From positions 8,956 to 72,955 of the forward strand of contig JAJYPD010000007.1 of assembly GCA_021795715.1 (NCBI GenBank): 64,000 bases of DNA, read 5' to 3'. This document shows positions 37,597 to 52,137 of this stretch, piece after piece. This stretch comes from Pseudomonadota bacterium (lineage in GTDB: Bacteria; Pseudomonadota; Gammaproteobacteria; Acidiferrobacterales; Acidiferrobacteraceae). The stretch's first letter is position 1; each line of letters begins with the position of its first letter. The translations under genes were made by a program, and so were the position numbers. The notes beneath the pieces are model-generated. The model was not told where the DNA came from, searched no databases, and saw only the letters and a program-made list of their open reading frames with translations.

Positions 37597-37605
37597 GGGG
37601 CCGCG

Positions 37606-37995: not shown

Positions 37996-38006
37996 AAGGG
38001 GACGAC

Positions 38007-38309
38007 ATGCTGCATACCGTCAACAAATCACCGCTACAAAGCCGGACGCTCGAGCAATGTCTTGCCCATGTCCGGCCGGGCGGGGCCGTATTACTGATTG
38101 AAGACGCCGTTTACGCGGCGACGGCACGCACGGCGGCCGGAGCGCAAATCGAGAAGAGCGTCGCGCAGTTTCCCGTGTACGTACTGGAACCCGACCTGAA
38201 GGCGCGCGGTATAGCCAGCAAGGACGTGGTCAAGGGCGTGACGGCAGTCGATTACGCCGGTTTCGTGAAGCTCGTGACAGAGCACGACGCCGTGCAAGCG
38301 TGGCTCTAG
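38007..38309 (+). CDS. dsrH: Sulfurtransferase DsrH
   Basis: MLHTVNKSP... 100 aa, the TusB/DsrH family position. Confidence 0.9.
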   Translation: MLHTVNKSPLQSRTLEQCLAHVRPGGAVLLIEDAVYAATARTAAGAQIEKSVAQFPVYVLEPDLKARGIASKDVVKGVTAVDYAGFVKLVTEHDAVQAWL

Positions 38310-38343
38310 GGTCGCAGACATTCAGGGTGAACAGGAGAGTACC

Positions 38344-38676
38344 ATGGCATACGAAGTGAACGGACAGAGCGTGACGGCAGACGAAGAGGGTTACATTGTC
38401 AATTTGGCCGAATGGAGCGAGCCGCTTGCCAACGTCATCGCGCAAAGTGAAGGCCTTGAGCTGACGTCCAACCACTGGGAAGTGATCAACTTCCTGCGTG
38501 AATACTACGGTGAATTCCAGATCGCGCCCGCGATCCGGGTGCTGACCAAGGCCATTGGCAAGAAGCTTGGTCCGGACAAGGGCAACAACAAGTATCTCTA
38601 CGACCTGTTCCCCTACGGTCCGGCCAAGCAGGCCTGCAAAATCGCCGGGCTGCCCAAGCCCACGGGGTGTATCTAA
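38344..38676 (+). CDS. dsrC: DsrC sulfur-carrier protein
   Basis: TusE/DsrC fold. C-terminal arm ...KQACKIAGLPKPTGCI has both conserved cysteines (penultimate Cys, and Cys 11 residues upstream). Confidence 0.95.
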   Translation: MAYEVNGQSVTADEEGYIVNLAEWSEPLANVIAQSEGLELTSNHWEVINFLREYYGEFQIAPAIRVLTKAIGKKLGPDKGNNKYLYDLFPYGPAKQACKIAGLPKPTGCI

Positions 38677-38705
38677 CAGCGGATCCCGGAGGCGGAGGCG
38701 GAATC

Positions 38706-39473
38706 ATGGCGACATGGACCATAGCGTATGCAGTGTTGTTGTACCTCGCGGCGATCGTTCTGGTCGGAGGGCTTTGCTACCGCATAGCACTCTACGCCAT
38801 GACAAAGGCCCCGCTCCGGATTCCCACCATGCCTGCGCCCCGGACACGTTCCGGCGTCGCCGTGCGCATGGCGGGCGAAGTGGGGCTCTTTACCAGCCTC
38901 TTTCGCGGCGACAAATGGGCTTGGATCTGGAGCTATCTCTTTCACGTCAGCCTTCTCCTCGTGCTGCTTCAGCACCTGCGCTATGTGTTCGTGAGCGTCC
39001 CCACGTGGGTGGTGTGGGAGTCGCCGTTTGGCAGTTACGCGGGGGCGGTGCTCGTCGTCTCCCTCATCGGACTGTTTGGGCGGCGGCTGATTAATGCGCG
39101 CGTGCGGTTCCTGTCTGGACCGTCGGACTATCTGATGCTGGTCTTGCTGTTTGCCATCGGTGTGACGGGCGCGATGATGCGCTTTGTCAGCCGCGTGAAC
39201 ATCGTCGGCTTCAAGGCGTTCATTCTTGGTCTCATGTACATGCATCTCCATCCGCTTCCGGATGACACGCTCATTCTGGTGCATGTCGGTCTCGTGGCCC
39301 TGCTCATGCTGGTGCTGCCCTTTAGCAAACTGCTGCATGCGCCAGGCGTCCTTTTCAGTCCGACCCGTAATCAGGTGGACAATGCGCGCCACGAGGCGCA
39401 GACACCGCGTGATCAGACCGCGCGCGGTGCCCGCGTTGGAGCAGAGCCCGTCGGTCAGGATGGTGCCCTATGA
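38706..39473 (+). CDS. dsrM: DsrM, NarI-like dihaem b membrane subunit
   Basis: 5 predicted TM helices with conserved His. Start at MATWTIAY; the track ORF begins 13 codons earlier, inside dsrC. Confidence 0.9.
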   Translation: MATWTIAYAVLLYLAAIVLVGGLCYRIALYAMTKAPLRIPTMPAPRTRSGVAVRMAGEVGLFTSLFRGDKWAWIWSYLFHVSLLLVLLQHLRYVFVSVPTWVVWESPFGSYAGAVLVVSLIGLFGRRLINARVRFLSGPSDYLMLVLLFAIGVTGAMMRFVSRVNIVGFKAFILGLMYMHLHPLPDDTLILVHVGLVALLMLVLPFSKLLHAPGVLFSPTRNQVDNARHEAQTPRDQTARGARVGAEPVGQDGAL

Positions 39474-40960
39474 GCGATATCACCGTACCAGCGCTTGGCG
39501 AATATGTGGAGACCCCCGAGCCGCGCGCCGGAGTGACAAAAGACATCCATACCTTCAAGGCAGGTCCCGAGCACCAGCGCGCGCTGGGATTCCCGGAAAG
39601 CCTGGTGGATGGCTGGCAGGAGAAGGCCATCCGCCGCCTGGGTGAACTGCTCGATACGCAGCGTGGACTGCGTGTCTACATGGATTCGTGCGTCAAGTGC
39701 GGCGCGTGCACGGACAAGTGCCATTATTTTCTGGGTACGGGCGAGGCCAACAATATGCCGGCGGCGCGCGCGGATCTGCTGCGCAAAGTGTACCGGCGGT
39801 ACTTCACGTGGCCCGGAAAATGGTTTCCCAAGCTTGTGGGTGCCACCGATCTGACGCCGGAAGTCCTCGATTCCTGGTACACGTACTTCCATCAATGCTC
39901 GCAGTGCCGGCGCTGCTCGGTGTTTTGTCCCTACGGGATTGACACCGCCGAGGTGTCCATGGCGGCGCGCGAGATCATGGACAGCATTGGCGTAGGCACA
40001 AAGTACACCAACGAGATTCTCGGCAAGGTTCACAAGGTCGGCAACAATCTCGGTCTTCCGGAGCCGGCACTGCGCAATACCCTCGAAGGTCTGGAGGAGG
40101 ACGTCAAGGACAGCACGGGCGTTGACGTGCGCTTCCCGGTGGACGTCGAGGGCGCCGAGGTGCTTCTCATCACGCCATCGGCCGACTTTTTTGCCGAACC
40201 GCACATCGACGGATTGATCGGTTATGCCAAGGTGTTCCACCAGGCGGGCATCAGCTGGACACTCAGCACGCACGCCTCGGAGGCGGCCAACTTCGCGATG
40301 TTCATCGGCAGCCATGAACAGATGCGCAAGGTGGCGATACGTATACGCGAAGCGGCGATTGCGCTCAAGGTCAAGCGGATTGTCGTGGGGGAATGCGGTC
40401 ACGCGTGGCGGGTCGCCTATTCCTTCTGGAACACCCTCATTGGGCCTTTTGACTTTCTGGATCCGCGCTACCCGCAGCCGCAGCATATCTGCGAGGTGAC
40501 GGAGGATCTCATCGGCCGGGGCGCCCTGAAGCTCGATCCGAGCGCGAACGACGAACGCGTCGTCACCTTCCACGATTCGTGCAACGTGGCACGCGCCACG
40601 CGCATGGGCGGCCGTCCGGGCGGCCAGTTCGAGGTTCCACGTTCCGTCATCCGGTCTGTCTGCAAGAATTTCGTGGAGATGAGCCCTGAGACAACGGGAG
40701 ACAGGACGTTTTGTTGCGGAGGCGGCGGCGGACTTTTGACCGACGACCTTCTGGAACTGCGCGTCAAAGGCGCGCTGCCGCGGATGCAGGCGCTGGATGC
40801 GGTCGTGAAGGAAAAGAAGGTCACGCATATGGCCGCGATCTGTGCCATATGCAAGAGCCAGTTTACGAAGGTACTGCCTTATTACGGCTTGGACCGCGAG
40901 ATGATCATCAGTGTGCATCAACTTGTGGGTGACGCCATCGTATTGGGCGCAAAAGAATAG
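39470..40960 (+). CDS. dsrK: DsrK, HdrD-like FeS catalytic subunit
   Basis: CVKCGACTDKC and CSQCRRCSVFCP ferredoxin motifs. CCG domain FCCGGGGG. Confidence 0.95.
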   Translation: MSDITVPALGEYVETPEPRAGVTKDIHTFKAGPEHQRALGFPESLVDGWQEKAIRRLGELLDTQRGLRVYMDSCVKCGACTDKCHYFLGTGEANNMPAARADLLRKVYRRYFTWPGKWFPKLVGATDLTPEVLDSWYTYFHQCSQCRRCSVFCPYGIDTAEVSMAAREIMDSIGVGTKYTNEILGKVHKVGNNLGLPEPALRNTLEGLEEDVKDSTGVDVRFPVDVEGAEVLLITPSADFFAEPHIDGLIGYAKVFHQAGISWTLSTHASEAANFAMFIGSHEQMRKVAIRIREAAIALKVKRIVVGECGHAWRVAYSFWNTLIGPFDFLDPRYPQPQHICEVTEDLIGRGALKLDPSANDERVVTFHDSCNVARATRMGGRPGGQFEVPRSVIRSVCKNFVEMSPETTGDRTFCCGGGGGLLTDDLLELRVKGALPRMQALDAVVKEKKVTHMAAICAICKSQFTKVLPYYGLDREMIISVHQLVGDAIVLGAKE

Positions 40961-40981
40961 CGGGCACAGAAGGGGATCAGA

Positions 40982-42892
40982 ATGACAGTAGGAAAACAGC
41001 AAGGGGAGACGACGGGTCGCACGTTCCGGCGGTACCAGGACGGCGAGGCGGAATTCGATTCGTTCCAGGAGCAGATCTTCAAGGCTGGCTGGTCGCACAA
41101 GTGCCCGGTGTACGTACAGCGCACGCCGGCCTGCCAGGGTCAGTGTCCGGCTGGCGAGGACATCCGGGGATGGCTTGACGTGGTACGCGGTCTCGACAAG
41201 CCGCCGACAGGCGTCACATGGCAGGAACATGCCTTCCGGCGTCTGACGCGCGCCAATCCGTTCCCGGGCGTCATGGGCTACGTGTGCCCGGCGCCATGCG
41301 AAGAAGGCTGCAATCGCCGCGCCGTGGAGGACTTCGTCGGCATCAATGCGGTCGAGCAGTTCGTGGGCGAAGCGGCCATCAAGGGTCAATACGGTTTCAA
41401 GAAACCCGAGAAGGAAACCGGCAAGCGGGTCGCGATCATCGGCGGGGGTGTGGCGGGGCTTGCGGCGGCCTACCAGTTGCGGTTGCGCGGCCACGGCTGC
41501 ACGATTTTCGAGTCGCGCGCAGAGCTGGGCGGCATGTTGCGCTACGGACTGCCCAATTACCGGACGCCGCCTGCGGTCGTCCAGGGGGAAATCCAGCGCA
41601 TTCTCGATATGGGTGTTGAAGTGCACACCAATACCCGGATCGGTGTGGATATCAAGATCGATGATCTGGACCGCGATTTCGATGCGGTCTTCTGGGCCAT
41701 CGGCACCCAAAACGGGCGCATACCGAATATTCCCGGCGCCAATGCGCCCAACTGTGTGGGCGGTATCGAATTTTTGCGCCAGTTCAACGACGGCAAGCTG
41801 CCTTCGGTTCCGGGGCGCATCGTGGTCATCGGCGGCGGCGACACCTCCATCGACGTGACGACGGTGGCGCGCAAGCTGGGCGGCTTTAGCGGCATCGATG
41901 GGGAAGGAAAGCCGTTGACCTACACGGCGGACATGGTCACATCGGCGGCGGCGCACAGCGGTCAGAAGGTCACTCTGACCTCGACGCTGCCGCTCGACCG
42001 GATGCGTGCATCGGCGCGTGAAGTGGCGGATGCGCGGTCGCTCGAAGTCGAGATCCTGGGCGGCCTCATGCCGCTGTCTGTGACCTGCAACGCAAAAGGG
42101 GTTGCGGTGGGCGTGCGTTTCGCGCCGTGCCATCACGGCGCCGACGGCCACCGTGTGCGCATCGAAGGTGACGAGATCGAGATTCCGGCGGACCTGGTCG
42201 TGTTCGCGATCGGCCAGTACGCCGATATGACGGGCCTTGAGAGTCTGGATAACGGACGCCAGGCGATCTCGGCGGGTCCGGCCTTGGAGGTTATCGGCCG
42301 TCCGCGCCATTTTGTCGGCGGGGACGTCATTGCCCCCCATCTTCTGGCGACGGCGATCGGTCATGCCGCGGCGGCGGCCGAGAGTATCGACGCGCTGCTG
42401 CGCGGCGAAACCCCCGCACGGCGGCCGCGGATCGACAAGCGCCATTACGACATCCGTGAAGGGCTGGTCGAGAATGCCAAACCCGTCAATGGCGTCGTGA
42501 CGAGCCGGACTTTTGTGCACAACTTTGAAAACCGCTCGACGCAGGAGGTCATCAAGGCGGACAGTCTGTTCCTGGGCCACTTCGAAACGACTCCACGGAT
42601 CCATCGGGAGGAGAGACGGCTGGCCGATCTGTTTGCCCGCGGCGGGGAACGCATCATGCCGCTGACCGAGGAACAGGCGGTCAAAGAGGCCAAGCGCTGC
42701 ATGAGCTGCGGTCTCTGTCTGGAGTGCGACAATTGCATGGTGTTTTGCCCGCAGGCGGCCGTCAGTAAGGTCCCGCGCGACCAGCATGCAATTGGCTACT
42801 ACGTGACGACCGACTATAAGCGCTGCATCGGATGCCACATCTGCCAGGACGTCTGTCCTGCGGGGTACATCCAGATGGGCTTGGGCGAATGA
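40982..42892 (+). CDS. dsrL: DsrL, NAD(P)H:acceptor oxidoreductase (GltD-like flavoprotein with C-terminal ferredoxin domain)
   Basis: N-terminal FeS Cys motifs, dinucleotide folds IIGGGVAGLAAAY and VVIGGGDTSIDV. C-terminal CMSCGLCLECDNC and CIGCHICQDVCP. Confidence 0.9.
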   Translation: MTVGKQQGETTGRTFRRYQDGEAEFDSFQEQIFKAGWSHKCPVYVQRTPACQGQCPAGEDIRGWLDVVRGLDKPPTGVTWQEHAFRRLTRANPFPGVMGYVCPAPCEEGCNRRAVEDFVGINAVEQFVGEAAIKGQYGFKKPEKETGKRVAIIGGGVAGLAAAYQLRLRGHGCTIFESRAELGGMLRYGLPNYRTPPAVVQGEIQRILDMGVEVHTNTRIGVDIKIDDLDRDFDAVFWAIGTQNGRIPNIPGANAPNCVGGIEFLRQFNDGKLPSVPGRIVVIGGGDTSIDVTTVARKLGGFSGIDGEGKPLTYTADMVTSAAAHSGQKVTLTSTLPLDRMRASAREVADARSLEVEILGGLMPLSVTCNAKGVAVGVRFAPCHHGADGHRVRIEGDEIEIPADLVVFAIGQYADMTGLESLDNGRQAISAGPALEVIGRPRHFVGGDVIAPHLLATAIGHAAAAAESIDALLRGETPARRPRIDKRHYDIREGLVENAKPVNGVVTSRTFVHNFENRSTQEVIKADSLFLGHFETTPRIHREERRLADLFARGGERIMPLTEEQAVKEAKRCMSCGLCLECDNCMVFCPQAAVSKVPRDQHAIGYYVTTDYKRCIGCHICQDVCPAGYIQMGLGE

Positions 42893-42893
42893 G

Positions 42894-43373
42894 ATGAAGA
42901 CCCGGGCGCTCGTCATCGCGGGATTGTCGGTTCTGATCTTCTTTGGTGCGATCTGGGCGGACCATCGCGGCACCGTACCGGTGCCGCTCGTTCCGACCGC
43001 ACAGGGTCACTGTGTCCTGCCGACGGCGCTCATGCGCCGCGAGCACATGATGCTGCTGCGCCAGGTGCGCGAGCAGATTGTGCGGGACGACAAGAATGAT
43101 CGCACCGACCGTCTGACCAACTGCATTGCCTGCCATGTGCAGACCAATAGCGCGGGGGCACCGATCCCAATCAATCAGCGCGGACAGTTTTGTGCCGCCT
43201 GCCACACGTATGTCGGGGTGCATCTCGACTGCTTCGCCTGCCACGCGACAGTGCCGCAAAAGGCGGTTTCGATCGCAAATCTCATGGGCACCAAGGGAGA
43301 ACAGGCGGCGTATTCGATTCCGCGGGTGATCCTTCAGAATGCGCCCGCATCGCTTTCAAGGGGGCATTCATGA
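42894..43373 (+). CDS. dsrJ: DsrJ, periplasmic trihaem cytochrome c
   Basis: Signal anchor plus three CxxCH sites (CIACH, CAACH, CFACH). Confidence 0.9.
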   Translation: MKTRALVIAGLSVLIFFGAIWADHRGTVPVPLVPTAQGHCVLPTALMRREHMMLLRQVREQIVRDDKNDRTDRLTNCIACHVQTNSAGAPIPINQRGQFCAACHTYVGVHLDCFACHATVPQKAVSIANLMGTKGEQAAYSIPRVILQNAPASLSRGHS

Positions 43374-44134
43374 CCGGTGATCGGACAGATCTCGTGAGTG
43401 ACGCCGCGCCCGAAGAGGGACACGACCCCTCACGGCGCCGGCTGTTTGCGCTGGCAGGTGGCGCGGTCGCGGCGGTGCTGACGCCGGGTGTGACGCTGTT
43501 TGCGCGCACGCTGACGGTCGGATCGGGCAAAACGCCGGTGCGCTACGGTCTGCTTATCGACAGCACCCGGTGCACGCAGGGCTGTGATGCCTGCGTCACG
43601 GCCTGCCAGGATTACAACGGTCTGTCAAAGAAGATCACGCCCGATACGGCGCAGTGGATCCGCAAGGTAACGGTCACGGATCCGCAGACGGGCCTGACCC
43701 GCAGCTTTCCTGTCATGTGCCAGCATTGTGCGCAGGCGACGTGCGTAGATGTGTGCCCAACCGGCGCATCGTATCGACGGCCGGATGGGATCGTGCTTGT
43801 CGACAAGCACCGCTGTATCGGCTGCCGTTACTGTCTCATGGCCTGCCCGTACAAGGCGCGTTCGTTCGTCGGACGGGTGGTGAAAGATCAAAAGCCATGG
43901 GCGCCACGCGGAAAAGGCACTGCAGAAGCATGTACGATGTGCGTCGAACGGGTCATGGACGGAAAGGCGCCGGCCTGCGTGACCGCCTGCGCCGAGAGGG
44001 GCAAGAAGGCGATGGTGTTTGGCAATCTGCATGATCCGAAAAGCGAGATTGCGCAAAAACTTGCGCAGTTTCCGACAACCACCATACGCGCCGATCTGGG
44101 CCTTGAGCCCGGCGTGCATTACCGCGGCATTTAG
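43370..44134 (+). CDS. dsrO: DsrO, periplasmic FeS ferredoxin-like subunit
   Basis: Tat motif SRRRLFALAGG. Cys clusters CTQGCDACVTAC, CQHCAQATCVDVCP, CIGCRYCLMACP and CTMCVERV. ATGA overlap with dsrJ; the track ORF from 43190 is an upstream extension. Confidence 0.9.
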   Translation: MTGDRTDLVSDAAPEEGHDPSRRRLFALAGGAVAAVLTPGVTLFARTLTVGSGKTPVRYGLLIDSTRCTQGCDACVTACQDYNGLSKKITPDTAQWIRKVTVTDPQTGLTRSFPVMCQHCAQATCVDVCPTGASYRRPDGIVLVDKHRCIGCRYCLMACPYKARSFVGRVVKDQKPWAPRGKGTAEACTMCVERVMDGKAPACVTACAERGKKAMVFGNLHDPKSEIAQKLAQFPTTTIRADLGLEPGVHYRGI

Positions 44135-44154
44135 ACGTCTTTCTGGGAGACCCT

Positions 44155-45396
44155 ATGGCAACCATGCACTACAGAGAGATCCCGGGCCGAAGCTTCCTCT
44201 ACTGGGCGGGACTGGCGGTGTGCGCCCTGCTGACCGTGGCCGGCGTGGGGGCCGGGCTTTATATGCGGGCCGAGGGGCACCATGTCACCGGGATGAATCA
44301 GCAGATCGTGTGGGGCATCGAGCATGTGTTCGCTGTCTTCCTGATCGTCGCGGCCTCGGGGGCCCTGAATGTGGCCTCCATCGCCTCGGTTTTCGGACGC
44401 ACGATCTACAAACCCCTGTCGCGGCTGTCGGGATTGCTGGCCATCGCGCTGCTAATCGGCGGCCTGTGGGATCTGGTCTTGGATCTTGGGCGTCCAGGAC
44501 ATGTGCTGGACGCCATCATCTACGGCAACTTCCGGTCGATCTTTGCATGGAACATGTACCTGTACGCCGGCTTTTTGCTGATTACGGGTTTTTACCTTTG
44601 GTTCATGATGGAGCGGCGCCTCAACCGATACAGCCACGCGATGGGCGTCACTGCATTTCTGTGGCGGTTGACGCTGACCACCGGCACGGGTTCGATCTTT
44701 GGTTTCCTGGTGTCGCGCAGCGCCTACGATACGGCGCTTCTGGCACCGATGTTCATCATCATGTCGTTTGCCTACGGGCTGGCGACGTTCCTGCTTATCC
44801 TGATCGGCGGTTTTCGCGCCCTGGCCCGGCCGGTCGGGGAGCGCATTCGGGGCCGCCTGAAGATTCTGTTGACCGTGTTCGTGGCAGCGGTGCTGTATTT
44901 TGCGGTTGTCTATAACCTGACCAATCTCTACATGCCCGGCCAGCGCGCGTTCGAGGGATTCGTGCTGCTTCATGGTGGTGTTTACACGATGCTTTTCTGG
45001 GTCGGGCAGATCCTGATCGGCGGCGTGTTCCCGCTCGTATTGCTGCTTGGCAAGAAAGGGGCGAGCGCCAGAACTTTGGTCATGGCAAGCGTGGCCGTGC
45101 TGATTGGCGGTCTCGCACAAGTCTACATCATCATCGTAGGGGCTCAGGCCTATCCGCAGCAGCTGTTTCCGGGAATGATCGTGCACAGTTCCTTCTACGA
45201 CGGGGTTGTCAACCCGTACATCCCGGGATGGCCCGAGACGACGCTCGCTGTGAGCGGTGTGGGATTAGTCGGGCTGATCGTCTTGCTGGCGGTGCGGGTG
45301 CTGCCCTTCCTGCCGCTCAGTCTCGCCGATGAGGTCACGGACGTGCACGGACATGATCAGACGGTGACCGCTGCCGGTGCTGCCGCAACGCCATGA
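44155..45396 (+). CDS. dsrP: DsrP, NrfD/PsrC-like integral membrane subunit
   Basis: About 10 TM helices, polysulfide-reductase NrfD-like. Position after dsrO. Confidence 0.9.
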   Translation: MATMHYREIPGRSFLYWAGLAVCALLTVAGVGAGLYMRAEGHHVTGMNQQIVWGIEHVFAVFLIVAASGALNVASIASVFGRTIYKPLSRLSGLLAIALLIGGLWDLVLDLGRPGHVLDAIIYGNFRSIFAWNMYLYAGFLLITGFYLWFMMERRLNRYSHAMGVTAFLWRLTLTTGTGSIFGFLVSRSAYDTALLAPMFIIMSFAYGLATFLLILIGGFRALARPVGERIRGRLKILLTVFVAAVLYFAVVYNLTNLYMPGQRAFEGFVLLHGGVYTMLFWVGQILIGGVFPLVLLLGKKGASARTLVMASVAVLIGGLAQVYIIIVGAQAYPQQLFPGMIVHSSFYDGVVNPYIPGWPETTLAVSGVGLVGLIVLLAVRVLPFLPLSLADEVTDVHGHDQTVTAAGAAATP

Positions 45397-46844
45397 TGCG
45401 CCGCGTCTACATATCGGCCGCTCATAAGTCGTCTGGAAAGACGACTGTCTCGATCGGTCTGTGTGCGGCGCTAAAGGAGCGCGGCCTGCGGGTGCAGCCC
45501 TTCAAGAAGGGGCCCGACTTCATCGATCCGCTCTGGCTTACCCAGGCGGCCGGGCGTGCCTGTCACAATCTCGACTTCCACACCATGAGCATCGCCGAGA
45601 TCCGCGATTGCTTCGCCATGGCCTCGCAGGATGCTGATATCGCCGTCATCGAAGGCAACAAGGGGCTGTTCGACGGCGTGGCACTCGACGGCAGCAACAG
45701 CAACGCCGCGCTTGCGCGGCATTTAGCGGCCCCGGTGGTGCTCGTCATCAACGCCCAGGGCATCAATCGGGGTATCGCGCCGCTTGTCATCGGCTATCGG
45801 CATTTCGATCCGGATCTGCCCGTGGCCGGTATCATCTTGAACCGTGTCGGAGGCGCGCGCCACGAGGCCAAACTGCGGGCCGTCCTGAAGGCTTTTACCG
45901 ATGTGCCGGTTCTCGGCGCCCTCTGGGATTCGGCGTCCGTGTCGATTACGGAACGTCATCTGGGCTTGATTCCAAGCGGCGAGCACGACGAAGCGGCATC
46001 TGCGGTGGAACGACTTTCGCGGGTCATCCAGGATCATGTCGATGTGGATGCCATTGCCCACATCGAGCCCGGTGAACGGCCTGTTTCGGTGACAGCGCGC
46101 CCGCGCAGGCGCGCGGTGGACTTGCGGATCGGTGTCCCGCGCGACGCCGCATTCAGCTTCTATTATCCGGGTGACCTGGAGGCGCTGGCGGCAGGCGGCG
46201 CCGAACTCGTATTTTTCGATACACTAAAGGACAAGCGCCTGCCCGAGGTCGACGGCCTCTTCATCGGTGGCGGCTTTCCTGAGACACAGGCGGGGGCGCT
46301 TGCCGCAAACAGCGGCATGCGCCGCGCCATCCGCGCGGCTATAGAGGAGGGTCTGCCCGTCTACGCCGAGTGCGGCGGCCTCATGTATCTCTGCCGGACT
46401 CTTTCGTGGCGCGGGGCGACCTACCCGATGGTCGGCGCGCTGGCTGCGGATGCGCAGATGGAAGAAAAGCCCATCGGTCATGGCTATGTGAATTTGCAGC
46501 CAACCGCCGCGCATCCGTGGTGGCCGGGGGGACCGGTGACGGGACGTGCGGTCGTGCCGGCCCATGAATTTCACTATTCGCATCTTGTCGATGTGGCTGC
46601 GGACACGGTGTACGCCTACAAGGTCACACGGGGGCACGGGATAGACGGCCAGAACGATGGCATCGTCTACAAGAACGTCCTGGCCGGCTATGCCCATCTG
46701 CGCGATGTACAGGCGTCGCCTTGGACGGGCCGTTTTCTGGATTTCGTGCGCAACCGCCGTCCAGCGGCAGGGATCTTGGCGGACGCATCCTGTTGTTGCT
46801 GCGCGCCCTCGATGGCCGGAGCGCCTTGTGACGCGCGCTCATGA
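45393..46844 (+). CDS. dsrN: DsrN, CobB/CbiA-like amidotransferase (siroheme amidase)
   Basis: P-loop AAHKSSGKTTVSIGL and GATase-like YAECGGLMYL with active Cys. ATGA overlap with dsrP. Unusual C-terminal tail containing CCCC. Confidence 0.85.
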   Translation: MMRRVYISAAHKSSGKTTVSIGLCAALKERGLRVQPFKKGPDFIDPLWLTQAAGRACHNLDFHTMSIAEIRDCFAMASQDADIAVIEGNKGLFDGVALDGSNSNAALARHLAAPVVLVINAQGINRGIAPLVIGYRHFDPDLPVAGIILNRVGGARHEAKLRAVLKAFTDVPVLGALWDSASVSITERHLGLIPSGEHDEAASAVERLSRVIQDHVDVDAIAHIEPGERPVSVTARPRRRAVDLRIGVPRDAAFSFYYPGDLEALAAGGAELVFFDTLKDKRLPEVDGLFIGGGFPETQAGALAANSGMRRAIRAAIEEGLPVYAECGGLMYLCRTLSWRGATYPMVGALAADAQMEEKPIGHGYVNLQPTAAHPWWPGGPVTGRAVVPAHEFHYSHLVDVAADTVYAYKVTRGHGIDGQNDGIVYKNVLAGYAHLRDVQASPWTGRFLDFVRNRRPAAGILADASCCCCAPSMAGAPCDARS

Positions 46845-48258
46845 CGTCGCGGTCATTGGTTGCGGGGCCGGCGGATACAAGGCGGCGATAACCGCCGCAC
46901 AGCATGGCGCCCGTGTGGTGGTCATCGAGCGCGAGCAGGTCGGCGGTGCCTGCCTGAACCGGGCGTGTGTGCCAAAGAAGGCGCTTGCGCACATCGCCAG
47001 TCTGATTCTCCAAACCCAAACGCTTACCGGTCACGGCCTGACAGGCCGGGTGAGCGGCGATCTGGCTGCCGCCATCGCCTTCAAAAATCAGGTTGTCGAC
47101 GAATTGCGGCGCGGGCTGCCTCTGCGATTGAAGCCGCTGGCCGTGGAGACCATCATCGGCGAAGCGCGCATGGCCGGTCCCAATCACATCCTCGTCGAAA
47201 CGGCGGAGGGGAAGCGGCGCATCGAGGCGCGATCCATCATCATCGCGACCGGCGCCGCGCCACGCGCGCTCGCCGGTTGCGCCGTGGATCACGACCGCAT
47301 CGTCAACGCCGACAGCTTCATTCCGACCCTGGCCGCACCGCTTGGTGACGTTCTGTGTGTTGGCGGGGGCGCGCTGGGTGTCGAGGCGGCCTTCTTCCTG
47401 CATCAGTTCGGAGGCCGTGTCACGATCGTTGAGGAAAAGGGGCGCCTTCTTGACCTGCCGGCGATTCCCGAGCGGGCTTCGAATCTGCTTGAACGCAGCC
47501 TGACAAGCCTTGGCGTCACCGTCTGCACGCAACAGACGGTTCGTTCGGCCCGGGCCACACATGAGGGCGTTTGTGTCGAATTCGCCGATGGGCGTGTGTC
47601 CAGCTTTGCGCGCGTTCTGGTCGCGGTAGGGCGCCAACCGCGTCCCGATGATCTGGGGCTCGATGATCTTGGCATTGAACGGGATGCCAACGGATTCATC
47701 GTCACGAACGAGTTCCTGCAAACGAATATTCCGGGTCTTTTCGCCGTAGGTGACGTCAAGGGCGGACCCATGACCGCGGCGGCGGCTCTTCACGATGGCC
47801 GCGTGGCCGGAGAAAATGCCACACAGGGTGCCGTGCGCCAGAGAAATTATCATCAGGTGCCGCTTGTCGTGGATTCCGTTCTGCCCATCGCCGCCATGGG
47901 CCTGTCGGAGGAACTGGCGGAATCCGCTGGATTCACTCCAGACACGGTCTACATCCCTTTGCGCGCATCAGTCAAGGCGCGCGCCTACAATGACGCCACC
48001 GGGTTCATCGAGATCGTCCATGACCAGGAAACTGGCCAGATGCTGGGTGGCTGTATTGTGGGTGCAGGCGCCGATGAATTGATCCACATCATCGCGCTGG
48101 CCTGCCGCTCGAAACGAGGCCTTTGGTCCCTCACGGATCTTGATTATGGCCACCCGTCATGGAGCGAGGATGTCGGGACCGCGCTGGAACCCTATATCCG
48201 GACGTTGACACAGACGGCCGACACCGTGTTTAGGCCCGGCATTTATGCGGCAGATTAA
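46828..48258 (+). CDS. Class-I pyridine nucleotide-disulfide oxidoreductase (dihydrolipoamide dehydrogenase-like)
   Basis: VAVIGCGAGGYKAA FAD fold, redox disulfide GGACLNRACVPKK (CxxxxC), second Rossmann VGGGALGVEAAFFLHQFGGRVTIVEE (acidic end, NADH-like), and C-terminal His-Glu dyad YGHPSWSE. GTG at 46828 is preceded by GGAG and overlaps dsrN by 17 nt. Confidence 0.8.
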   Translation: MTRAHDVAVIGCGAGGYKAAITAAQHGARVVVIEREQVGGACLNRACVPKKALAHIASLILQTQTLTGHGLTGRVSGDLAAAIAFKNQVVDELRRGLPLRLKPLAVETIIGEARMAGPNHILVETAEGKRRIEARSIIIATGAAPRALAGCAVDHDRIVNADSFIPTLAAPLGDVLCVGGGALGVEAAFFLHQFGGRVTIVEEKGRLLDLPAIPERASNLLERSLTSLGVTVCTQQTVRSARATHEGVCVEFADGRVSSFARVLVAVGRQPRPDDLGLDDLGIERDANGFIVTNEFLQTNIPGLFAVGDVKGGPMTAAAALHDGRVAGENATQGAVRQRNYHQVPLVVDSVLPIAAMGLSEELAESAGFTPDTVYIPLRASVKARAYNDATGFIEIVHDQETGQMLGGCIVGAGADELIHIIALACRSKRGLWSLTDLDYGHPSWSEDVGTALEPYIRTLTQTADTVFRPGIYAAD

Positions 48259-48291
48259 AGGGCAGGAGAGGGCGCTCATCCCGCAGGCGAT

Positions 48292-48311
48292 GTTCGTATA
48301 TAGTATCGAAC
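48292..48311 (+). promoter_or_regulatory. AT-cored palindrome GTTCG-TATATAGTAT-CGAAC between the disulfide reductase and sensor kinase genes
   Basis: 5-bp arms flank a -10-like TATATAGTAT core in an otherwise GC-rich 88-nt gap. Confidence 0.3.
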
Positions 48312-48346
48312 AGAGTGTTTCTGCGGCCAGCCGGCCCGAGGCCCCT

Positions 48347-49975
48347 ATGGAAAGACAGTACGTTGGGAAAACGCCGTTGTGGCAGCAATGGTGGAATGAC
48401 TGGCGGTCCCGGCCGGCGGATGGCTGGCGGCGCAAATATCGCCCGTGGCTGGTGGGGGCGGCACCGGTCGGTCTCATGGTGCTTCTCCTCGCGGCCGTCA
48501 TCGCCGAAGGGGCCGACGATGGGCACGGACCCCATGCGATGCTGTTTCATGGGCTGGCGCTGGCCGTCTTGCTGCTGGCCCTGATCGGTACCGCCGGCAT
48601 CTGGGTCGTTACATTCCGTTCATTGCTGACGCCGCTTTATCACCTGCGCACATGGGCGGCGCGGGTACGCGCGGGCAATTTGTCCGTGCGCATCCCGGCC
48701 TCCGTCGCCGATGGGGAATTCGCCAAGCTCGCCGCCGACGTAAACAGTGTAAGCGAGATTTTGAGCAACCTGTCCGCCGAGCGCTCCTCGCTGCCCTACC
48801 GGCCAATGACCGCGCGCTGGCTCGAGATCCTAAATGACATCACCGCGGGCATTGCCAGTTCCCAGGATCTGGATGAACTGCTCCCGCGCTTTCTGTATAC
48901 GCTCTGGAACGCCAACGAAATCCGGGCCGGCATGGTGCGCCTGGCAACCGATGACGGCCACCTCCGTCTCATGGCCAGCATCGGTCTGCCCGACGAGATT
49001 GTCGCAAAAGAACGGCGTATTCCGCTTGATTGCTGCCTGTGCGGGCACGCGGTCGGTCAGACGGCGCTGAGCATCGGATCCGATATTCATACCTGTTGCG
49101 AATCCTGGGGCCAATCGCCTTTTTCGGGCGAGGATCTGGTGCTGCTCGCCGTGCCTCTGCGCTGCGAGGGCCGGACGGTCGGTATCTACAATCTGTTCAT
49201 GCCCCGGACCCGCATCGTCGGCCACAATGATGTCTCGGATCTGCTCCTTGGCCTTGGCCGCCATCTGGGCGCAGCCATCGAAAAGATGCGCCTGCAGGAT
49301 GAACGGCGTCAGCTGTCTTTGCTGCAGGAACGCATGACCATCGCGCACGAGCTGCACGACTCGCTCGCGCAGACGCTCGCTGGGCTGCGCATCCAGGCGC
49401 AGGTTCTCCGCGAGACCCTGGCCCAGGATGAGCATCCGGGCGTACGCAGTGAATTTGACCGGCTGAGCGCGGGTCTCGAAGTGGCCCACAGGGAAGTGCG
49501 CGACCTGATCCGCAACTGGCGGGCCGTGGGGGCCGAAGGCGGTTTGATGCCGGCGCTCGATGCCACGATCACCCGTTTTCAGGCGGAAACCGGGATTCCG
49601 GTGTTCGTGCAGAAGGATTGGCACGGCGTTTTGCCGGCCAGTTACCAGACACACGTGTTACGCGTGATCCAGGAGGCTCTAAGCAATGTGCGCAAGCATG
49701 CCCATGCACAGACGGTGCGGGTTTTGCTGGCGAGCGAAGCGGACGGTTTGTATCGGGTTCTGATAGAGGATGATGGGGAGGGCGCCGTGCCAGGCGAGGA
49801 AAGGGACGACCAGGAAGAACACTTTGGACAGGCCATCATGCGCGAACGCGCGCGCGCCATGGGCGGCGAATTGCGCGTTGAACGGGAAATAGGCGAAGGG
49901 ACGCAAGTCCTTCTCACCTTCCGGAACCCGGCGGTTTCGCTGTCCCGGGCGAATTATCCGGTGGCGGCTTCATGA
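48347..49975 (+). CDS. NarX/NarQ-type sensor histidine kinase (2 TM - HAMP - GAF - HisKA_3 - HATPase_c)
   Basis: Two TM helices with about a 13-aa outer loop, HAMP (LRTWAARVRAGNLSVRIP), GAF region with CCLCGH...HTCCESW, H-box IAHELHDSLAQTL, and HATPase IQEALSNVRKHA...DDGEG. Start at 48347 (GAGG upstream); 48290 is an alternative. Confidence 0.8.
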   Translation: MERQYVGKTPLWQQWWNDWRSRPADGWRRKYRPWLVGAAPVGLMVLLLAAVIAEGADDGHGPHAMLFHGLALAVLLLALIGTAGIWVVTFRSLLTPLYHLRTWAARVRAGNLSVRIPASVADGEFAKLAADVNSVSEILSNLSAERSSLPYRPMTARWLEILNDITAGIASSQDLDELLPRFLYTLWNANEIRAGMVRLATDDGHLRLMASIGLPDEIVAKERRIPLDCCLCGHAVGQTALSIGSDIHTCCESWGQSPFSGEDLVLLAVPLRCEGRTVGIYNLFMPRTRIVGHNDVSDLLLGLGRHLGAAIEKMRLQDERRQLSLLQERMTIAHELHDSLAQTLAGLRIQAQVLRETLAQDEHPGVRSEFDRLSAGLEVAHREVRDLIRNWRAVGAEGGLMPALDATITRFQAETGIPVFVQKDWHGVLPASYQTHVLRVIQEALSNVRKHAHAQTVRVLLASEADGLYRVLIEDDGEGAVPGEERDDQEEHFGQAIMRERARAMGGELRVEREIGEGTQVLLTFRNPAVSLSRANYPVAAS

Positions 49976-50616
49976 GGGTCATGCTGATCGATGATCACGC
50001 GCTTTTTCGCAGTGGACTTGAGCATTTGCTTGTCCGGCGCGGGATCGATGTGGTGGCTACGACCAGCGACGGGGAGCAGGCGCTGGCCCTGATCCAGGAG
50101 ACGCGCCCCCATGTGGTGCTCCTGGATATCCGCATGCCGAAACTCGGCGGCATCGAGACCTTGCGGCGACTGCGTGCCGGAGGCGTCACCGTGCCGATCG
50201 TGATGTTGACAACGAGCAGCGACGAGGCCGATCTCGTGTCTTCCCTCCATCATGGCGCACAAGGCTATCTGCTAAAGGACATGGAGCCAGACGGCCTGGT
50301 CGCCGCGCTGGCGCAGATCGAGACCGGGGAGATGATCGTTGCCCCGGAATTTGCGCCCGTACTGGCCCGCTTCATCCAGAGCGGGCCGGAGGCCATGAAA
50401 GCTTCCCACGCCTTTAGCGATCTCACACCGCGGGAGCTGGAGATCCTCGGGCATCTGGGGGACGGGCAGAGCAACAAGGTCATCGCCCGTTCGCTTGGCA
50501 TCTCCGAGGGAACGGTCAAGCTCCACGTCAAGGCCATTCTGCGCAAACTCAAGCTGAGCTCGCGCGTACAGGCCGCGGTGCGTTCGGTCGAGGAAGGATT
50601 TGGCCGGAAGAACTGA
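49972..50616 (+). CDS. NarL/FixJ-family response regulator (REC + LuxR-type HTH)
   Basis: MLIDDH...VVLLDIRMP receiver. LTPRELEILGHLGDGQSNKVIARSLGISEGTVKLHVKAILRKL HTH. ATGA overlap with the kinase gene. Confidence 0.9.
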   Translation: MRVMLIDDHALFRSGLEHLLVRRGIDVVATTSDGEQALALIQETRPHVVLLDIRMPKLGGIETLRRLRAGGVTVPIVMLTTSSDEADLVSSLHHGAQGYLLKDMEPDGLVAALAQIETGEMIVAPEFAPVLARFIQSGPEAMKASHAFSDLTPRELEILGHLGDGQSNKVIARSLGISEGTVKLHVKAILRKLKLSSRVQAAVRSVEEGFGRKN

Positions 50617-50652: not shown

Positions 50653-52065
50653 TTAGCCGGCGGCCCGTAATGCCGAGGCGGAAGCGTGCGTCCGGCCGGC
50701 CCAGCGGTCATGCAGCCGCACGACTTCGCCGATAATGACGAGGGTGGGCGGCGTAATGGATTGGCGGCTCACGACGTCGGGCAAGTCGCTCAACGTGCTC
50801 GTCAGCACCCGCTGCTGCGGGGTCGTACCGCGTTCGACCAATGCGGCGGGGGTTGTGGGCGGCAGGCCATGCCGGATGAGTTCGCGGCTGATCGTTGCAA
50901 CCGCCGCCACGCCCATGTAGAACACCAGCGTTTGATGGGGTTGCGCCAGGGCGGCCCAGTTCACGGACGATCCGTCGTTCTGGCAGTGGCCGGCGACGAA
51001 TACGCAGGACTGCGCATACTCCCGGTGGGTCAATGGCAGGTCACCGTACGCGGCGCAGCCCAGTGCGGCTGTGATGCCAGGGACAACCTGGAACGGAATG
51101 CCGGCTTCCACCAGGGTGTCGATTTCCTCGCCCCCCCGACCGAAAACAAAGGGATCGCCACCCTTGAGGCGTACGACCCGCTTGCCGGCGGCCGCCAGGT
51201 CGACCAGCAACTGGTTGATGTTTTCCTGCGGAACCGCATGACGGCCAGCGCTCTTGCCTACGTCGATGCGCTCTGCGTCCTTGCGGCACAGTGCGAGGAT
51301 CGGGGGGGCGACCAGGCGGTCATAAACGATCACATCGGCTTCCTGCATGAGGCGCAAGGCGCGCAGCGTCAGAAGATCGGGATCACCGGGCCCGGCGCCG
51401 ACAAGCGACACGAGTCCCAAGGTATCGTCGGCGCGCGGAGAGGCGAGCTCCTGGGCGAAAAGGCCCTCGGCCTCCTCGGTACGGCCGCCGAGCAGAAGTT
51501 CGGCAACGGGGCCCTGCAGGATGCGCTCCCAGAACCGCCGCCGCGCATCGGGTCGGGGAATATGCTGGCGCACCTGGGTCCGCCGCCGTGCCATGAAATG
51601 GGCCAGCTGCCCGTAGGCCGAGCCGATCATCGTTTCGAGGCGCACCCGCAGAAGGCGCGCCAAAACAGGCGAGGCGCCGCCGCTCGAAACGGCGACAAGC
51701 ACCGGGGAGCGGTCGATGATCGACGGCATGATGAAAGTGCACAGCGCAGGGTGGTCCACCACGTTGACCGGAATGTGGGCCGCGGTCGCGGCCTCCGAGA
51801 CGTGCTTGTTGACCCGGCCATTGCTCGTCGCCGCGATCACGATCCGCGCGCCTGCCACATCCAGGGGATCGAATGATCGTGCCACATGCGCGATTCCGCC
51901 CGCTTCCTTCAGTGCAGAAAGCCCCGCGCATAGCTCAGGCGCGATGACCGTCACCTGCGCGCCCGCTTCTCTCAGAATGCGGATCTTGCGCAAGGCCACT
52001 TCACCGCCCCCAACGACCACGGCGTGGGCCCCATGCATGTTGAGAAAGATGGGTAAATGGTTCAT
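50653..52065 (-). CDS. cysG: Siroheme synthase CysG (precorrin-2 dehydrogenase/ferrochelatase + SUMT)
   Basis: N-terminal NAD fold VVVGGGEVALRK. C-terminal methyltransferase LVGAGPGDPDLLTLRAL, RLKGGDPFVFGRGGEE. Confidence 0.9.
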   Translation of the reverse strand: MNHLPIFLNMHGAHAVVVGGGEVALRKIRILREAGAQVTVIAPELCAGLSALKEAGGIAHVARSFDPLDVAGARIVIAATSNGRVNKHVSEAATAAHIPVNVVDHPALCTFIMPSIIDRSPVLVAVSSGGASPVLARLLRVRLETMIGSAYGQLAHFMARRRTQVRQHIPRPDARRRFWERILQGPVAELLLGGRTEEAEGLFAQELASPRADDTLGLVSLVGAGPGDPDLLTLRALRLMQEADVIVYDRLVAPPILALCRKDAERIDVGKSAGRHAVPQENINQLLVDLAAAGKRVVRLKGGDPFVFGRGGEEIDTLVEAGIPFQVVPGITAALGCAAYGDLPLTHREYAQSCVFVAGHCQNDGSSVNWAALAQPHQTLVFYMGVAAVATISRELIRHGLPPTTPAALVERGTTPQQRVLTSTLSDLPDVVSRQSITPPTLVIIGEVVRLHDRWAGRTHASASALRAAG

Positions 52066-52121
52066 AGGCGCCCCACTTCAGAATGAGTTCATACTGAACA
52101 CCCAACGGCACAACGAAAACA

Positions 52122-52137
52122 TATCCCTGTGGGGATA
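52122..52137 (-). promoter_or_regulatory. 7-2-7 inverted heptamer pair TATCCCT-GT-GGGGATA upstream of cysG
   Basis: 57-72 nt upstream of the cysG ATG. Same heptamer family as the dsrA upstream array. Confidence 0.45.

What the first reader, a model, noticed from the sequence alone, without database searches (positions are those of the whole stretch)
52122..52137. The same heptamer in exact 7-2-7 geometry upstream of siroheme synthase cysG
TATCCCT-GT-GGGGATA (revcomp of the second half is TATCCCC) lies 57-72 nt upstream of the cysG ATG, just upstream of where a -35 would be, a typical activator position. The half-sites are identical to the two central heptamers of the dsrA array. DsrAB needs sirohaem, which DsrN amidates to siroamide. 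A shared operator would couple cofactor synthesis to dsr expression as a small dsr/sirohaem regulon. The match is seen directly in the sequence; the regulon idea is inference.
Basis: partly seen in the sequence, partly recalled or inferred. Interest (0 to 1): 0.6.

Follow-up and report, generated by a model that had tools for sequence, protein, structure and literature searches.

The report
Conserved regulator site before cysG
The 16-base palindrome in front of the sirohaem-synthase gene cysG is a real, conserved NarL-type docking site shared with the dsrA promoter. It most likely lets the response regulator encoded at the end of the dsr operon switch on cofactor synthesis together with the sulfur-oxidising enzyme that needs it.

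Summary
TATCCCTGTGGGGATA (52122-52137) lies 57-72 nt upstream of the minus-strand cysG ATG. It is the only exact match in the 2.1-Mb genome.

It is not chance. All 16 genomes of the two closest genera (Acidiferrobacteraceae) with a readable cysG 5' end carry a TAYCCC-N4-GGGRTA site 71-75 nt before the ATG. Flanking DNA and neighbouring genes differ.

A matrix built only from the other genus's cysG sites ranks the cysG site first in this genome. The two dsrA-upstream sites rank second and fifth.

The motif is the NarL 7-2-7 operator. A NarL-family response regulator and its kinase sit between dsrN and cysG here, across the order and in distant Gammaproteobacteria. Its DNA-reading helix is invariant. 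The same box precedes dsrA class-wide.

The kinase has no periplasmic nitrate sensor. It has a CxC-x17-C cysteine motif in its GAF domain. This genome has no narG, and DsrAB are its only sirohaem proteins.

The dsr/sirohaem regulon idea is supported by comparative evidence only. Binding, the signal, the transcription start and the direction of control are inferred. It is a new member of a known operator type, in an undescribed regulon.

The parts
52122..52137 (.). 7-2-7 operator TATCCCT-GT-GGGGATA (read towards cysG: TATCCCC-AC-AGGGATA). Its centre is 64.5 nt upstream of the cysG ATG.
   Evidence: unique in the window, 0/100 shuffles. (unique in the genome). (conserved at -71 to -75 in 16/16 g1+g2 genomes).
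52122..52128 (+). Half-site TATCCCT, identical to the dsrA-array heptamer at 34766.
52131..52137 (-). Half-site TATCCCC, identical to the dsrA-array heptamers at 34775 and 34809.
52093..52101 (-). Second invariant block GTGTnnAnT (here GTGTTCAGT), starting exactly 20 nt downstream of the operator. It is a candidate -10 region of the cysG promoter.
   Evidence: Alignment A1 of 11 genomes: invariant G105 T106 G107 T108 A111 T113, with no gaps between the two blocks. Its role as a -10 element is inference.
50653..52065 (-). cysG, trifunctional sirohaem synthase (470 aa). It is the gene served by the operator and the only cysG/cobA homologue in the genome.
49972..50616 (+). NarL-family response regulator, the proposed binder. 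It is the last gene of the dsr operon and its start overlaps the kinase stop.
   Evidence: E. coli NarL 1A04, E = 3.7e-47; K174, R178, K188 and K192 kept; V189 is L. (helix GTVKLHVK invariant in 47 orthologues). Synteny.
48245..49975 (+). Sensor histidine kinase: two TM helices joined by about 10 residues, then HAMP, GAF with C264-x-C266-x17-C284, HisKA_3 and HATPase. The true start may be M35 at 48347.
34775..34790 (.). dsrA distal 7-2-7 site, TATCCCC-TA-ATGGATA.
   Evidence: Rank 2 genome-wide with the cysG-trained matrix.
34809..34824 (.). dsrA proximal site TATCCCC-TC-AGGGGCA, conserved in relatives as TATCCCCTCWGGGGCATAGG.
   Evidence: Rank 5 genome-wide.
34890..46844 (+). dsrABEFHCMKLJOPN, the operon co-regulated under this model. 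It continues into the lpd-like gene, the kinase and the regulator.

Best explanation
The 16-mer is the operator of the cysG promoter. It is a NarL-type 7-2-7 inverted repeat, with family consensus TAYCCC-N4-GGGRTA.

The proposed binder is a dimer of the phosphorylated NarL-family response regulator encoded at 49972-50616. That gene is the last gene of the dsr operon (dsrAB...N, lpd-like, kinase, regulator).

The same regulator is proposed to bind the heptamer array upstream of dsrA. One signal would then drive the DsrAB enzyme system, its own regulator (a positive loop) and the only sirohaem synthase of the cell.

The partner kinase is not a nitrate sensor. It has no periplasmic domain and carries a conserved CxC-x17-C cysteine motif in a cytoplasmic GAF domain. 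This is probably an Fe-S or thiol-based sensor of redox state or of sulfide/sulfane sulfur.

The most likely action at cysG is activation from a site abutting the -35 region, as NarL does at yeaR, napF and ogt.

Shown here: the site, its uniqueness, its conservation, its sharing with dsrA, the gene neighbourhood, and conservation of the DNA-reading residues.

Inferred: who binds, the signal, the transcription start, and activation rather than repression.
For: 1. Uniqueness. There is one exact match in the window (0/100 shuffles) and one in the genome.

2. Footprint. Alignment A1 of 11 cysG upstream regions has only two conserved blocks in otherwise unalignable DNA: the 16-mer, and GTGTnnAnT 20 nt downstream. 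All 16 g1+g2 genomes have a site starting 71-75 nt before the ATG. The exact pattern TAYCCCYNNRGGGRTA occurs once per genome in 7 of 19 family genomes, always 57 nt before cysG; the reversed-pattern control gave 0.

3. Link to dsrA. A matrix built from the 9 distinct cysG sites of genus g2 only ranks this genome's cysG site 1st (22.0), the dsrA distal site 2nd (17.2) and the dsrA proximal site 5th (15.0). Shuffled genomes give about 6.5 hits at or above 15 anywhere in 2.1 Mb. Three of the five real hits therefore fall in about 350 nt of two functionally linked promoters.

4. Regulator. The arrangement dsrN-(lpd)-HK-RR with cysG convergent after it is kept in the family, in the 9 families sampled from the order and in distant Gammaproteobacteria. 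The regulator aligns with E. coli NarL over its full length. It keeps the base-contacting K188 and K192 and the alpha-CTD-contacting K174 and R178; the roles of these residues are from PMC10853779. The helix GTVKLHVK is invariant in 47 orthologues, down to 50% overall identity.

5. Same box, same regulator, class-wide. A TAYCCC-N4-GGGRTA-type site lies 175-263 nt upstream of dsrA in 7 of 7 distant genomes. The exact pattern, which occurs only 1-3 times per complete genome, lies upstream of dsrA in 8 of 10.

6. Motif identity. NarL binds inverted heptamers 2 bp apart. The engineered high-affinity site is TACCCCTAAAGGGGTA (PMC4549865).

7. Logic. DsrA and DsrB are the only NIR_SIR proteins in this genome.

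8. Not nitrate. The kinase has no periplasmic domain and no hit to NarX/NarQ sensor structures. This genome has no narG. The 4 of 19 family genomes with narG each have a separate NarL paralogue; in the three where both genes were located on the same contig, it lies 2-3 kb from narG.
Against: The consensus promoter scan found no sigma-70 promoter in the region, so the position relative to +1 is a guess of about -45 to -49.

The total number of genome-wide matrix hits at or above 15 is no higher than in shuffles. Only their location is significant.

Outside the family the cysG upstream regions carry only loosely similar heptamers, at other distances. cysG membership of the regulon is therefore firmly supported only for Acidiferrobacteraceae genera g1 and g2.

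G009 and G014 have the site, but no regulator orthologue was found in their incomplete assemblies.

Larger relatives also have CysI/NirB-like sirohaem enzymes and still keep the site, so 'DsrAB is the only client' is not general.

Two other LuxR-type regulators exist in the genome at 27-28% identity.
Confidence: 0.72

Rival explanations
1. The site is a real operator, but for a different transcription factor (another LuxR/FixJ-type or unrelated dimeric regulator). The dsr-linked regulator does not bind it.
For: Binding was not tested. Two other full-length LuxR-type regulators are present in the genome at 27-28% identity. G009 and G014 have the site although no regulator orthologue was detected in them.
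Against: The motif matches the NarL heptamer and 7-2-7 geometry. The dsr-linked regulator is the only close NarL homologue in the genome. It is the only regulator gene whose position next to both dsr and cysG is conserved from family to class. An invariant recognition helix goes with an invariant box. G009 and G014 are incomplete assemblies, and G009's cysG lies 218 nt from a contig end.
Confidence: 0.13
2. It is a classical nitrate/nitrite NarX-NarL site that couples cysG to nitrite reduction, as in the E. coli nirBDC-cysG operon.
For: The regulator's best NCBIfam hit is NarL (217 bits, cut-off 250), and the kinase's transmitter half resembles NarQ/NarX. From my own knowledge, not checked in the papers read here, E. 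coli cysG is transcribed from a NarL/NarP-activated promoter.
Against: The kinase has about 10 residues between its two TM helices, no P-box domain and no match to NarX/NarQ sensor structures. This genome has no narG and no NirB/NirA-type protein. The relatives that do have narG carry a separate NarL paralogue of 42-44% identity, seen 2-3 kb from narG in three of them. The system is always embedded after dsrN.
Confidence: 0.04
3. It is an RNA element: a weak intrinsic terminator of the upstream EamA gene, or a 5' hairpin.
For: The terminator scan flags it on the minus strand as a 6-bp stem followed by TGTTTTCGTT.
Against: The hairpin is only -7.1 kcal/mol with z = -0.8 against shuffles. The T-run is absent in most relatives. 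The gene upstream of cysG differs between genomes and is divergently oriented in G003, G005, G011 and G006, yet the site stays at the same distance from the cysG ATG. The arms are conserved in sequence, not merely in pairing. The same heptamers occur as direct repeats at dsrA. A much stronger hairpin (52176-52215, -31.5 kcal/mol) already follows the EamA gene.
Confidence: 0.03
4. It is a chance palindrome with no function.
For: Short palindromes occur by chance. The total number of matrix hits in the genome is not above the shuffled expectation.
Against: My composition-based estimate is about 0.02 exact matches expected per genome, and 0/100 window shuffles matched. The site is conserved at a fixed position in 16/16 genomes, inside unalignable DNA.
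Confidence: 0.01

Closest known systems
E. coli NarL/NarP 7-2-7 operators (heptamer TACYYMT; yeaR -43.5, ogt -44.5 and -77.5, napF, frdA; engineered site TACCCCTAAAGGGGTA)
   Same: Two inverted heptamers separated by 2 bp. There is near-identity to the high-affinity NarL site: relatives carry TACCCCT and TACCCCC half-sites. The cognate candidate regulator keeps K188, K192, K174 and R178. The site probably lies just upstream of the -35 region (PMC4549865, PMC10853779).
   Different: Position 3 is mostly T rather than C, and residue 189 is Leu rather than Val. The partner kinase has no nitrate-sensing periplasmic domain. The regulon is dsr plus cysG, not nitrate respiration. Binding has not been tested.
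E. coli nirBDC-cysG operon
   Same: Sirohaem synthase is expressed together with the sirohaem enzyme that consumes its product, under a NarL-family regulator acting at a 7-2-7 site. This is my own knowledge and was not checked in the papers read.
   Different: In E. coli the coupling comes from co-transcription in one operon and responds to nitrate/nitrite plus FNR. Here cysG is a separate, convergent transcription unit with its own copy of the operator, and the client enzyme is DsrAB.
Bacillus licheniformis NreBC and Staphylococcus aureus AirSR (HisKA_3 kinases with Cys-ligated [2Fe-2S] clusters and NarL-type regulators)
   Same: The kinase and regulator classes are the same. The AirS cluster motif is Cys-X7-Cys-X-Cys-X17-Cys (PMC4601167), and the kinase here has C264-X-C266-X17-C284. 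B. licheniformis NreB uses three cysteines and a labile sulfur ligand to sense sulfide, and through NreC activates sulfur-oxidation genes sqr-pdo (PMC13478379).
   Different: NreB carries its cluster in a PAS domain with CX2CX11C. Here the cysteines lie in a GAF domain behind two TM helices and a HAMP domain. No cofactor has been shown. The targets are dsr and cysG. No sequence-level homology of the sensor domains was tested.

Membership tests
NarL/NarP-type 7-2-7 operator | Two heptamers in inverted orientation separated by exactly 2 bp | tested here: met
   TATCCCT-GT-GGGGATA. The same geometry is found in 16/16 relatives.
NarL/NarP-type 7-2-7 operator | Heptamers fit TACYYMT | tested here: inconclusive
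   The family heptamer is T-A-(T 11 / C 7)-C-(C 16 / T 2)-C-N. That is 6 of 7 positions here (T at position 3) and 7 of 7 in some relatives (TACCCCT in G016). The TACYYMT consensus itself is quoted from my own knowledge.
NarL/NarP-type 7-2-7 operator | A NarL-family regulator with the base-contacting residues of helix alpha-9 is present | tested here: met
   The regulator aligns with NarL 1A04 at E = 3.7e-47. K188 and K192 are kept and V189 is L. The roles of these residues are from PMC10853779.
NarL/NarP-type 7-2-7 operator | The regulator binds the site in a phosphorylation-dependent manner | not testable with these tools
   This needs EMSA or footprinting.
NarX/NarQ-NarL nitrate/nitrite two-component system | Periplasmic four-helix nitrate-binding (P-box) sensor domain | tested here: not met
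   About 10 residues separate TM1 and TM2. There is no Pfam domain before HAMP, even at E = 10. There is no hit to the NarX or NarQ sensor structures.
NarX/NarQ-NarL nitrate/nitrite two-component system | Association with nitrate/nitrite respiration genes | tested here: not met
   This genome has no narG. narG is in 4/19 family genomes, each with its own NarL paralogue. This system is always placed after dsrN.
NarX/NarQ-NarL nitrate/nitrite two-component system | NCBIfam equivalog score for NarL or NarX | tested here: not met
   NarL 217 bits against a cut-off of 250. NarQ 165 against 553. NarX 140 against 578.
Rho-independent terminator | Stable GC-rich stem followed by a U-tract, conserved downstream of a co-directional gene | tested here: not met
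   -7.1 kcal/mol, z = -0.8. The T-run is not conserved. The upstream neighbours differ or are divergent.
AirS/NreB-like Fe-S sensor kinases | Conserved cysteine cluster in the cytoplasmic sensor domain of a HisKA_3 kinase | tested here: met
   C264, C266 and C284 are conserved in 21 of 22 orthologues across the order. The spacing C-X-C-X17-C equals the last three cysteines of the AirS motif (PMC4601167).
AirS/NreB-like Fe-S sensor kinases | The protein binds an Fe-S cluster | not testable with these tools
   This needs anaerobic purification with UV-vis and EPR spectroscopy.

The most novel reading that the evidence does not exclude
The kinase and regulator that follow dsrN may be the long-sought master switch of the oxidative Dsr pathway in a large share of sulfur-oxidising Gammaproteobacteria. 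Under this reading, a cytoplasmic CxC-x17-C GAF sensor, possibly an Fe-S cluster reading sulfide/sulfane sulfur or redox state, phosphorylates a NarL-type regulator with the invariant helix GTVKLHVK. The regulator then binds a class-wide 'dsr box', TAYCCC-N4-GGGRTA. Lineages would have added further genes to this regulon: cysG in Acidiferrobacteraceae, and a DsrC-like gene and the aprB/soeA-like region elsewhere.
Probability: 0.4. Interest if true: 0.75.

Novelty: new member of a known kind. Interest (0 to 1): 0.58.

Why it matters
As far as I know, and as far as my literature searches showed, little is established about how sulfur oxidisers switch on the dsr genes.

This site gives a concrete, testable circuit: a defined 16-bp operator, a named candidate regulator and sensor, and a small regulon of the dsr operon plus cysG.

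The circuit explains how a cell whose only sirohaem enzyme is DsrAB matches cofactor supply to enzyme synthesis.

A cultured relative, Acidiferrobacter thiooxydans, carries the same arrangement, and the box is found upstream of dsrA in distant Gammaproteobacteria. The hypothesis can therefore be tested directly, and the motif can be used to annotate dsr regulons in metagenomes.

The searchable literature returned no description of a dsr-linked NarL-type two-component system.

Tried and rejected

2. The sigma-70 consensus scan found no promoter in 51950-52350. I could not fix a -10 element. The candidates TATGAA, CAGTAT and the invariant block GTGTnnAnT put the operator centre between about -45 and -49.

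3. A third strong matrix hit in this genome lies at C4:6158 (TACCCCCTTTGAGGTA), between an unknown 388-aa gene and mscL. It is not conserved in 13 relatives and is rejected as chance.

4. aprB and soeA carry an exact box in one distant genome, but they have no site in this genome.

5. In other families of the order, the cysG upstream regions show only loosely similar heptamers at other distances, so I make no claim there. Examples are TATCACCGAAGAAATA at -60 in G022/G033 and GGGGTA repeats in G024/G027.

6. Literature searches for a described dsr-linked two-component system found nothing relevant. One search was swamped by 'dsRNA' matches to 'dsrN'.

7. I did not run structure prediction of the GAF domain or protein database searches. 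They would not have changed the verdict on the cysG site.

Full report
OBSERVATION. The window reads 52122 TATCCCT-GT-GGGGATA 52137. This is a perfect 6-4-6 palindrome, or a 7-2-7 with one asymmetric position. cysG is the minus-strand ORF 50653-52065. It has all four CysG Pfam domains and scores 632 bits on the NCBIfam CysG equivalog against a cut-off of 400. Its half-sites TATCCCT and TATCCCC are the same words as at 34766 and 34775 upstream of dsrA. The pattern TATCCCYNNRGGGATA occurs once in the window, and no match arose in 100 shuffles. It occurs once in the 2.1-Mb, 64% G+C genome. From base composition I estimate about 0.02 exact matches by chance. Genome-wide, the only 1-mismatch match (34775) and one of the seven 2-mismatch matches (34809) are both upstream of dsrA.

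CONTEXT. On the plus strand the window carries dsrABEFHCMKLJOPN (34890-46844). These are followed without real gaps by a lipoamide-dehydrogenase-like flavoprotein, a histidine kinase (48245-49975) and a response regulator (49972-50616, overlapping the kinase stop). cysG converges on this operon. Upstream of cysG on the minus strand is an EamA transporter gene that ends at 52253. It is followed by a very stable hairpin at 52176-52215 (-31.5 kcal/mol, z = -4). Record titles place the relatives in Acidiferrobacteraceae.

CONSERVATION OF THE cysG SITE. Regulator orthologues of 76-96% identity occur in 15 genomes of the same family, always as dsrN-lpd-HK-RR. I aligned 143 nt upstream of cysG from 11 genomes (A1). 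Only two blocks are conserved: the 16-mer, with T, A, CCC ... G, G, TA(T) invariant, and GTGTnnAnT exactly 20 nt downstream. Everything further upstream is unalignable.

With all cysG loci of the family, 16 of 16 genomes of genera g1 and g2 have a site starting 71-75 nt before the ATG. The variants are TATCCCCACAGGGATA, TATCCCAACGGGGATA, TATCCCTCCCGGGATA, TATCCCTACGGGGGTA, TATCCCTCCTGGGGTA, TATCCCCACTGGGGTA, TATCTCTCCTGGGGTA, TATCCCCACCGGGATA, TACCCCTCACGGGATA and TACCCCCACCGAGGTA.

The exact degenerate pattern TAYCCCYNNRGGGRTA occurs once per genome in 7 of 19 family genomes. Each time it lies 57 nt before cysG, including genomes where cysG is 11 kb from the regulator or on another contig. 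The reversed control pattern gave zero matches.

The one exception is G004, a third genus. It has only a degenerate CATGCTCCGGGCGATA at the same place. Its kinase is also the only one lacking the cysteine motif.

NOT A TERMINATOR. The consensus scan flags the site as terminator-like on the cysG strand. However, the RNA hairpin is weak (-7.1 kcal/mol, z = -0.8) and the T-run is absent from most relatives. The gene upstream of cysG differs between genomes and is divergently oriented in G003, G005, G011 and G006. The element belongs to cysG, not to the gene before it.

LINK TO dsrA. I built a half-site matrix from the nine distinct cysG sites of the other genus only, using no sequence from this genome or its genus, and scanned the whole genome as 7-2-7. 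The cysG site ranks 1st (22.0), the dsrA distal site at 34775 ranks 2nd (17.2) and the dsrA proximal site at 34809 ranks 5th (15.0). Shuffled genomes give about 6.5 hits at or above 15 per 2.1 Mb. The number of hits is therefore unremarkable, but three of the five fall in about 350 nt of two promoters that are functionally linked. Relatives keep the proximal dsrA site as TATCCCCTCWGGGGCATAGG, and the distal sites vary.

WHO BINDS. The motif is the NarL operator. NarL prefers inverted heptamers 2 bp apart, and its engineered high-affinity site is TACCCCTAAAGGGGTA (PMC4549865). The regulator encoded beside cysG aligns with E. coli NarL over its whole length (1A04, E = 3.7e-47). It keeps K188 and K192 of the recognition helix and K174 and R178, the residues reported to contact DNA bases and the RNA polymerase alpha-CTD (PMC10853779). 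V189 is replaced by Leu. It is the only close NarL homologue in this genome.

The neighbourhood dsr...PN-(lpd)-HK-RR with cysG convergent after it holds in the 9 families sampled from the order. In a 301-genome sample of Gammaproteobacteria, 90 genomes have a kinase homologue. Of the 18 best-scoring loci outside the family, 14 show dsrN or the lpd-like gene beside the kinase within the 1.5-kb flanks. Among 12 regions fetched at 20 kb, 10 carry the dsr genes and 6 have cysG downstream.

The helix (D/E)GTVKLHVK(A/S/G)(I/V)LRKL is invariant in its core, GTVKLHVK, in all 47 orthologues, down to 50% overall identity. Matching this, a high-scoring TAYCCC-N4-GGGRTA-type site lies 175-263 nt upstream of dsrA in 7 of 7 distant genomes whose upstream region I could read. 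The exact pattern occurs only 1-3 times per complete genome, against 0-1 for the reversed control. One of those matches is upstream of dsrA in 8 of 10 distant genomes. An invariant reading head paired with an invariant box next to the same operon is the strongest available argument that this regulator reads this box.

NOT A NITRATE SYSTEM. The kinase has two TM helices joined by about 10 residues, then HAMP, GAF, HisKA_3 and HATPase. No Pfam domain precedes HAMP, and there is no match to the NarX or NarQ sensor structures. All NCBIfam NarL, NarX and NarQ scores are below their cut-offs. This genome lacks narG. The 4 of 19 family genomes with narG each have a second NarL paralogue of 42-44% identity; it lies 2-3 kb from narG in the three genomes where the two could be placed on one contig.

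Three cysteines, C264-x-C266-x17-C284, are conserved in 21 of 22 kinase orthologues across the order. A fourth varies in position. The spacing equals the last three cysteines of the AirS [2Fe-2S] motif, Cys-X7-Cys-X-Cys-X17-Cys (PMC4601167). A three-cysteine [2Fe-2S] cluster in B. licheniformis NreB senses sulfide and, through a NarL-type regulator, activates sulfur-oxidation genes (PMC13478379). These are analogies that suggest a redox or sulfide signal. Nothing here shows a cofactor.

WHY cysG. DsrA and DsrB are the only NIR_SIR-family proteins in this 95%-complete genome. The same holds for the other g1 genome that has dsrAB and for four g2 genomes. Larger relatives add CysI/NirB-like enzymes yet keep the site. 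There is one cysG/cobA homologue. In this organism, sirohaem synthesis therefore serves DsrAB.

MECHANISM (INFERRED). The kinase and regulator are the last genes of the dsr operon. Activation at the dsrA promoter would therefore be self-reinforcing, and a copy of the operator at cysG would bring cofactor synthesis into the same response.

At dsrA, a TACTCT hexamer (34848-34853; TAGTCT in relatives) would put the proximal site near -43.5. At cysG, the candidate -10 hexamers in or next to the invariant block put the operator centre at about -45 to -49. No -35-like hexamer lies between. This resembles yeaR (-43.5) and ogt (-44.5), where NarL activates (PMC10853779). These positions are guesses until a start site is mapped, and repression cannot be excluded.

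REGULON SIZE. In this genome the regulon looks small: the dsr operon and cysG. A third matrix hit on contig C4 is not conserved. A weaker site (TATCCGTCAAGGGATG) lies about 145 nt upstream of a DsrC-like paralogue on contig C17. Five relatives have 7-2-7-like sequences at the same distance: G014, G011 and G015 score 14-16, while G002 and G018 are weak. In distant genomes, exact boxes also sit before a DsrC-like gene (G028), between aprB and a soeA-like gene (G084) and before ccoN (G227). In this genome, aprB and soeA have none.

VERDICT. The interpretation, a shared operator coupling sirohaem synthesis to dsr expression, is supported by comparative evidence and sharpened by a candidate regulator and sensor. 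The element is an ordinary kind of thing, a NarL-type 7-2-7 operator, in a regulon that I could not find described. An earlier agent of this scan reached the same reading from the dsrA side; I reached mine independently and do not count that note as evidence.

Noticed in passing
window 52176-52215 (minus strand): A very stable 14-bp hairpin (-31.5 kcal/mol, z = -4) lies directly after the EamA gene and before the cysG operator, with no U-tract. It may end or insulate EamA transcription so that cysG depends on its own promoter. It is not present in relatives with other neighbouring genes.
   Followed up: partly
own genome contig C17:8486-8501 (locus L124), about 145 nt upstream of a DsrC-like gene at C17:8004-8342 (minus): A DsrC-family paralogue without the C-terminal cysteines has a 7-2-7-like site, TATCCGTCAAGGGATG. 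G014, G011 and G015 have sites scoring 14-16 at the same distance (-157 to -160), and G002 and G018 have weak ones. In G028 an exact TATCCCGTTCGGGATA sits just before another DsrC-like gene (L167). This is a possible third regulon member.
   Followed up: partly
loci L155-L166 (distant Gammaproteobacteria): dsrAB...N-(lpd)-kinase-regulator, often with convergent cysG, is conserved far outside the order. A TAYCCC-N4-GGGRTA box lies 175-263 nt upstream of dsrA and is followed about 70 nt later by a conserved TAGACT. The long distance to the ATG suggests a long dsrA leader in those lineages.
   Followed up: partly
L172 (G084:C1:101744), L177 (G227:C12:192510): Exact boxes also lie in the divergent region between aprB and a soeA-like molybdoenzyme gene, and 167 nt upstream of ccoN (cbb3 oxidase). 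This hints that the regulon reaches sulfite oxidation and the terminal oxidase in some lineages.
   Followed up: no
own genome contig C4:4807-5970 (locus L109): A 388-aa protein with no Pfam match is 87-96% identical across the family. That is more conserved than CysG or the regulator. Its function is unknown.
   Followed up: no
L071 / L107 (G004, third genus of the family): G004's kinase is the only one that lacks the CxC...C motif, because of a deletion in the GAF domain. Its cysG upstream region has only a degenerate remnant of the operator at the same position.
   Followed up: no
G003:C50, G015:C105, G018:C169, G013:C78 (not fetched): True narG occurs in only 4 of 19 family genomes. In G003, G015 and G018 a separate NarL paralogue of 42-44% identity lies 2-3 kb from narG on the same contig. 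No such paralogue was listed for G013. The family therefore holds two distinct NarL-type systems.
   Followed up: partly
window 52253-52450 (minus): The EamA transporter upstream of cysG ends in a long histidine-rich tail (...HWHVHEPLSHSHPHFPDAHHDHDH). The tail is also present in the same-genus relative G001.
   Followed up: no
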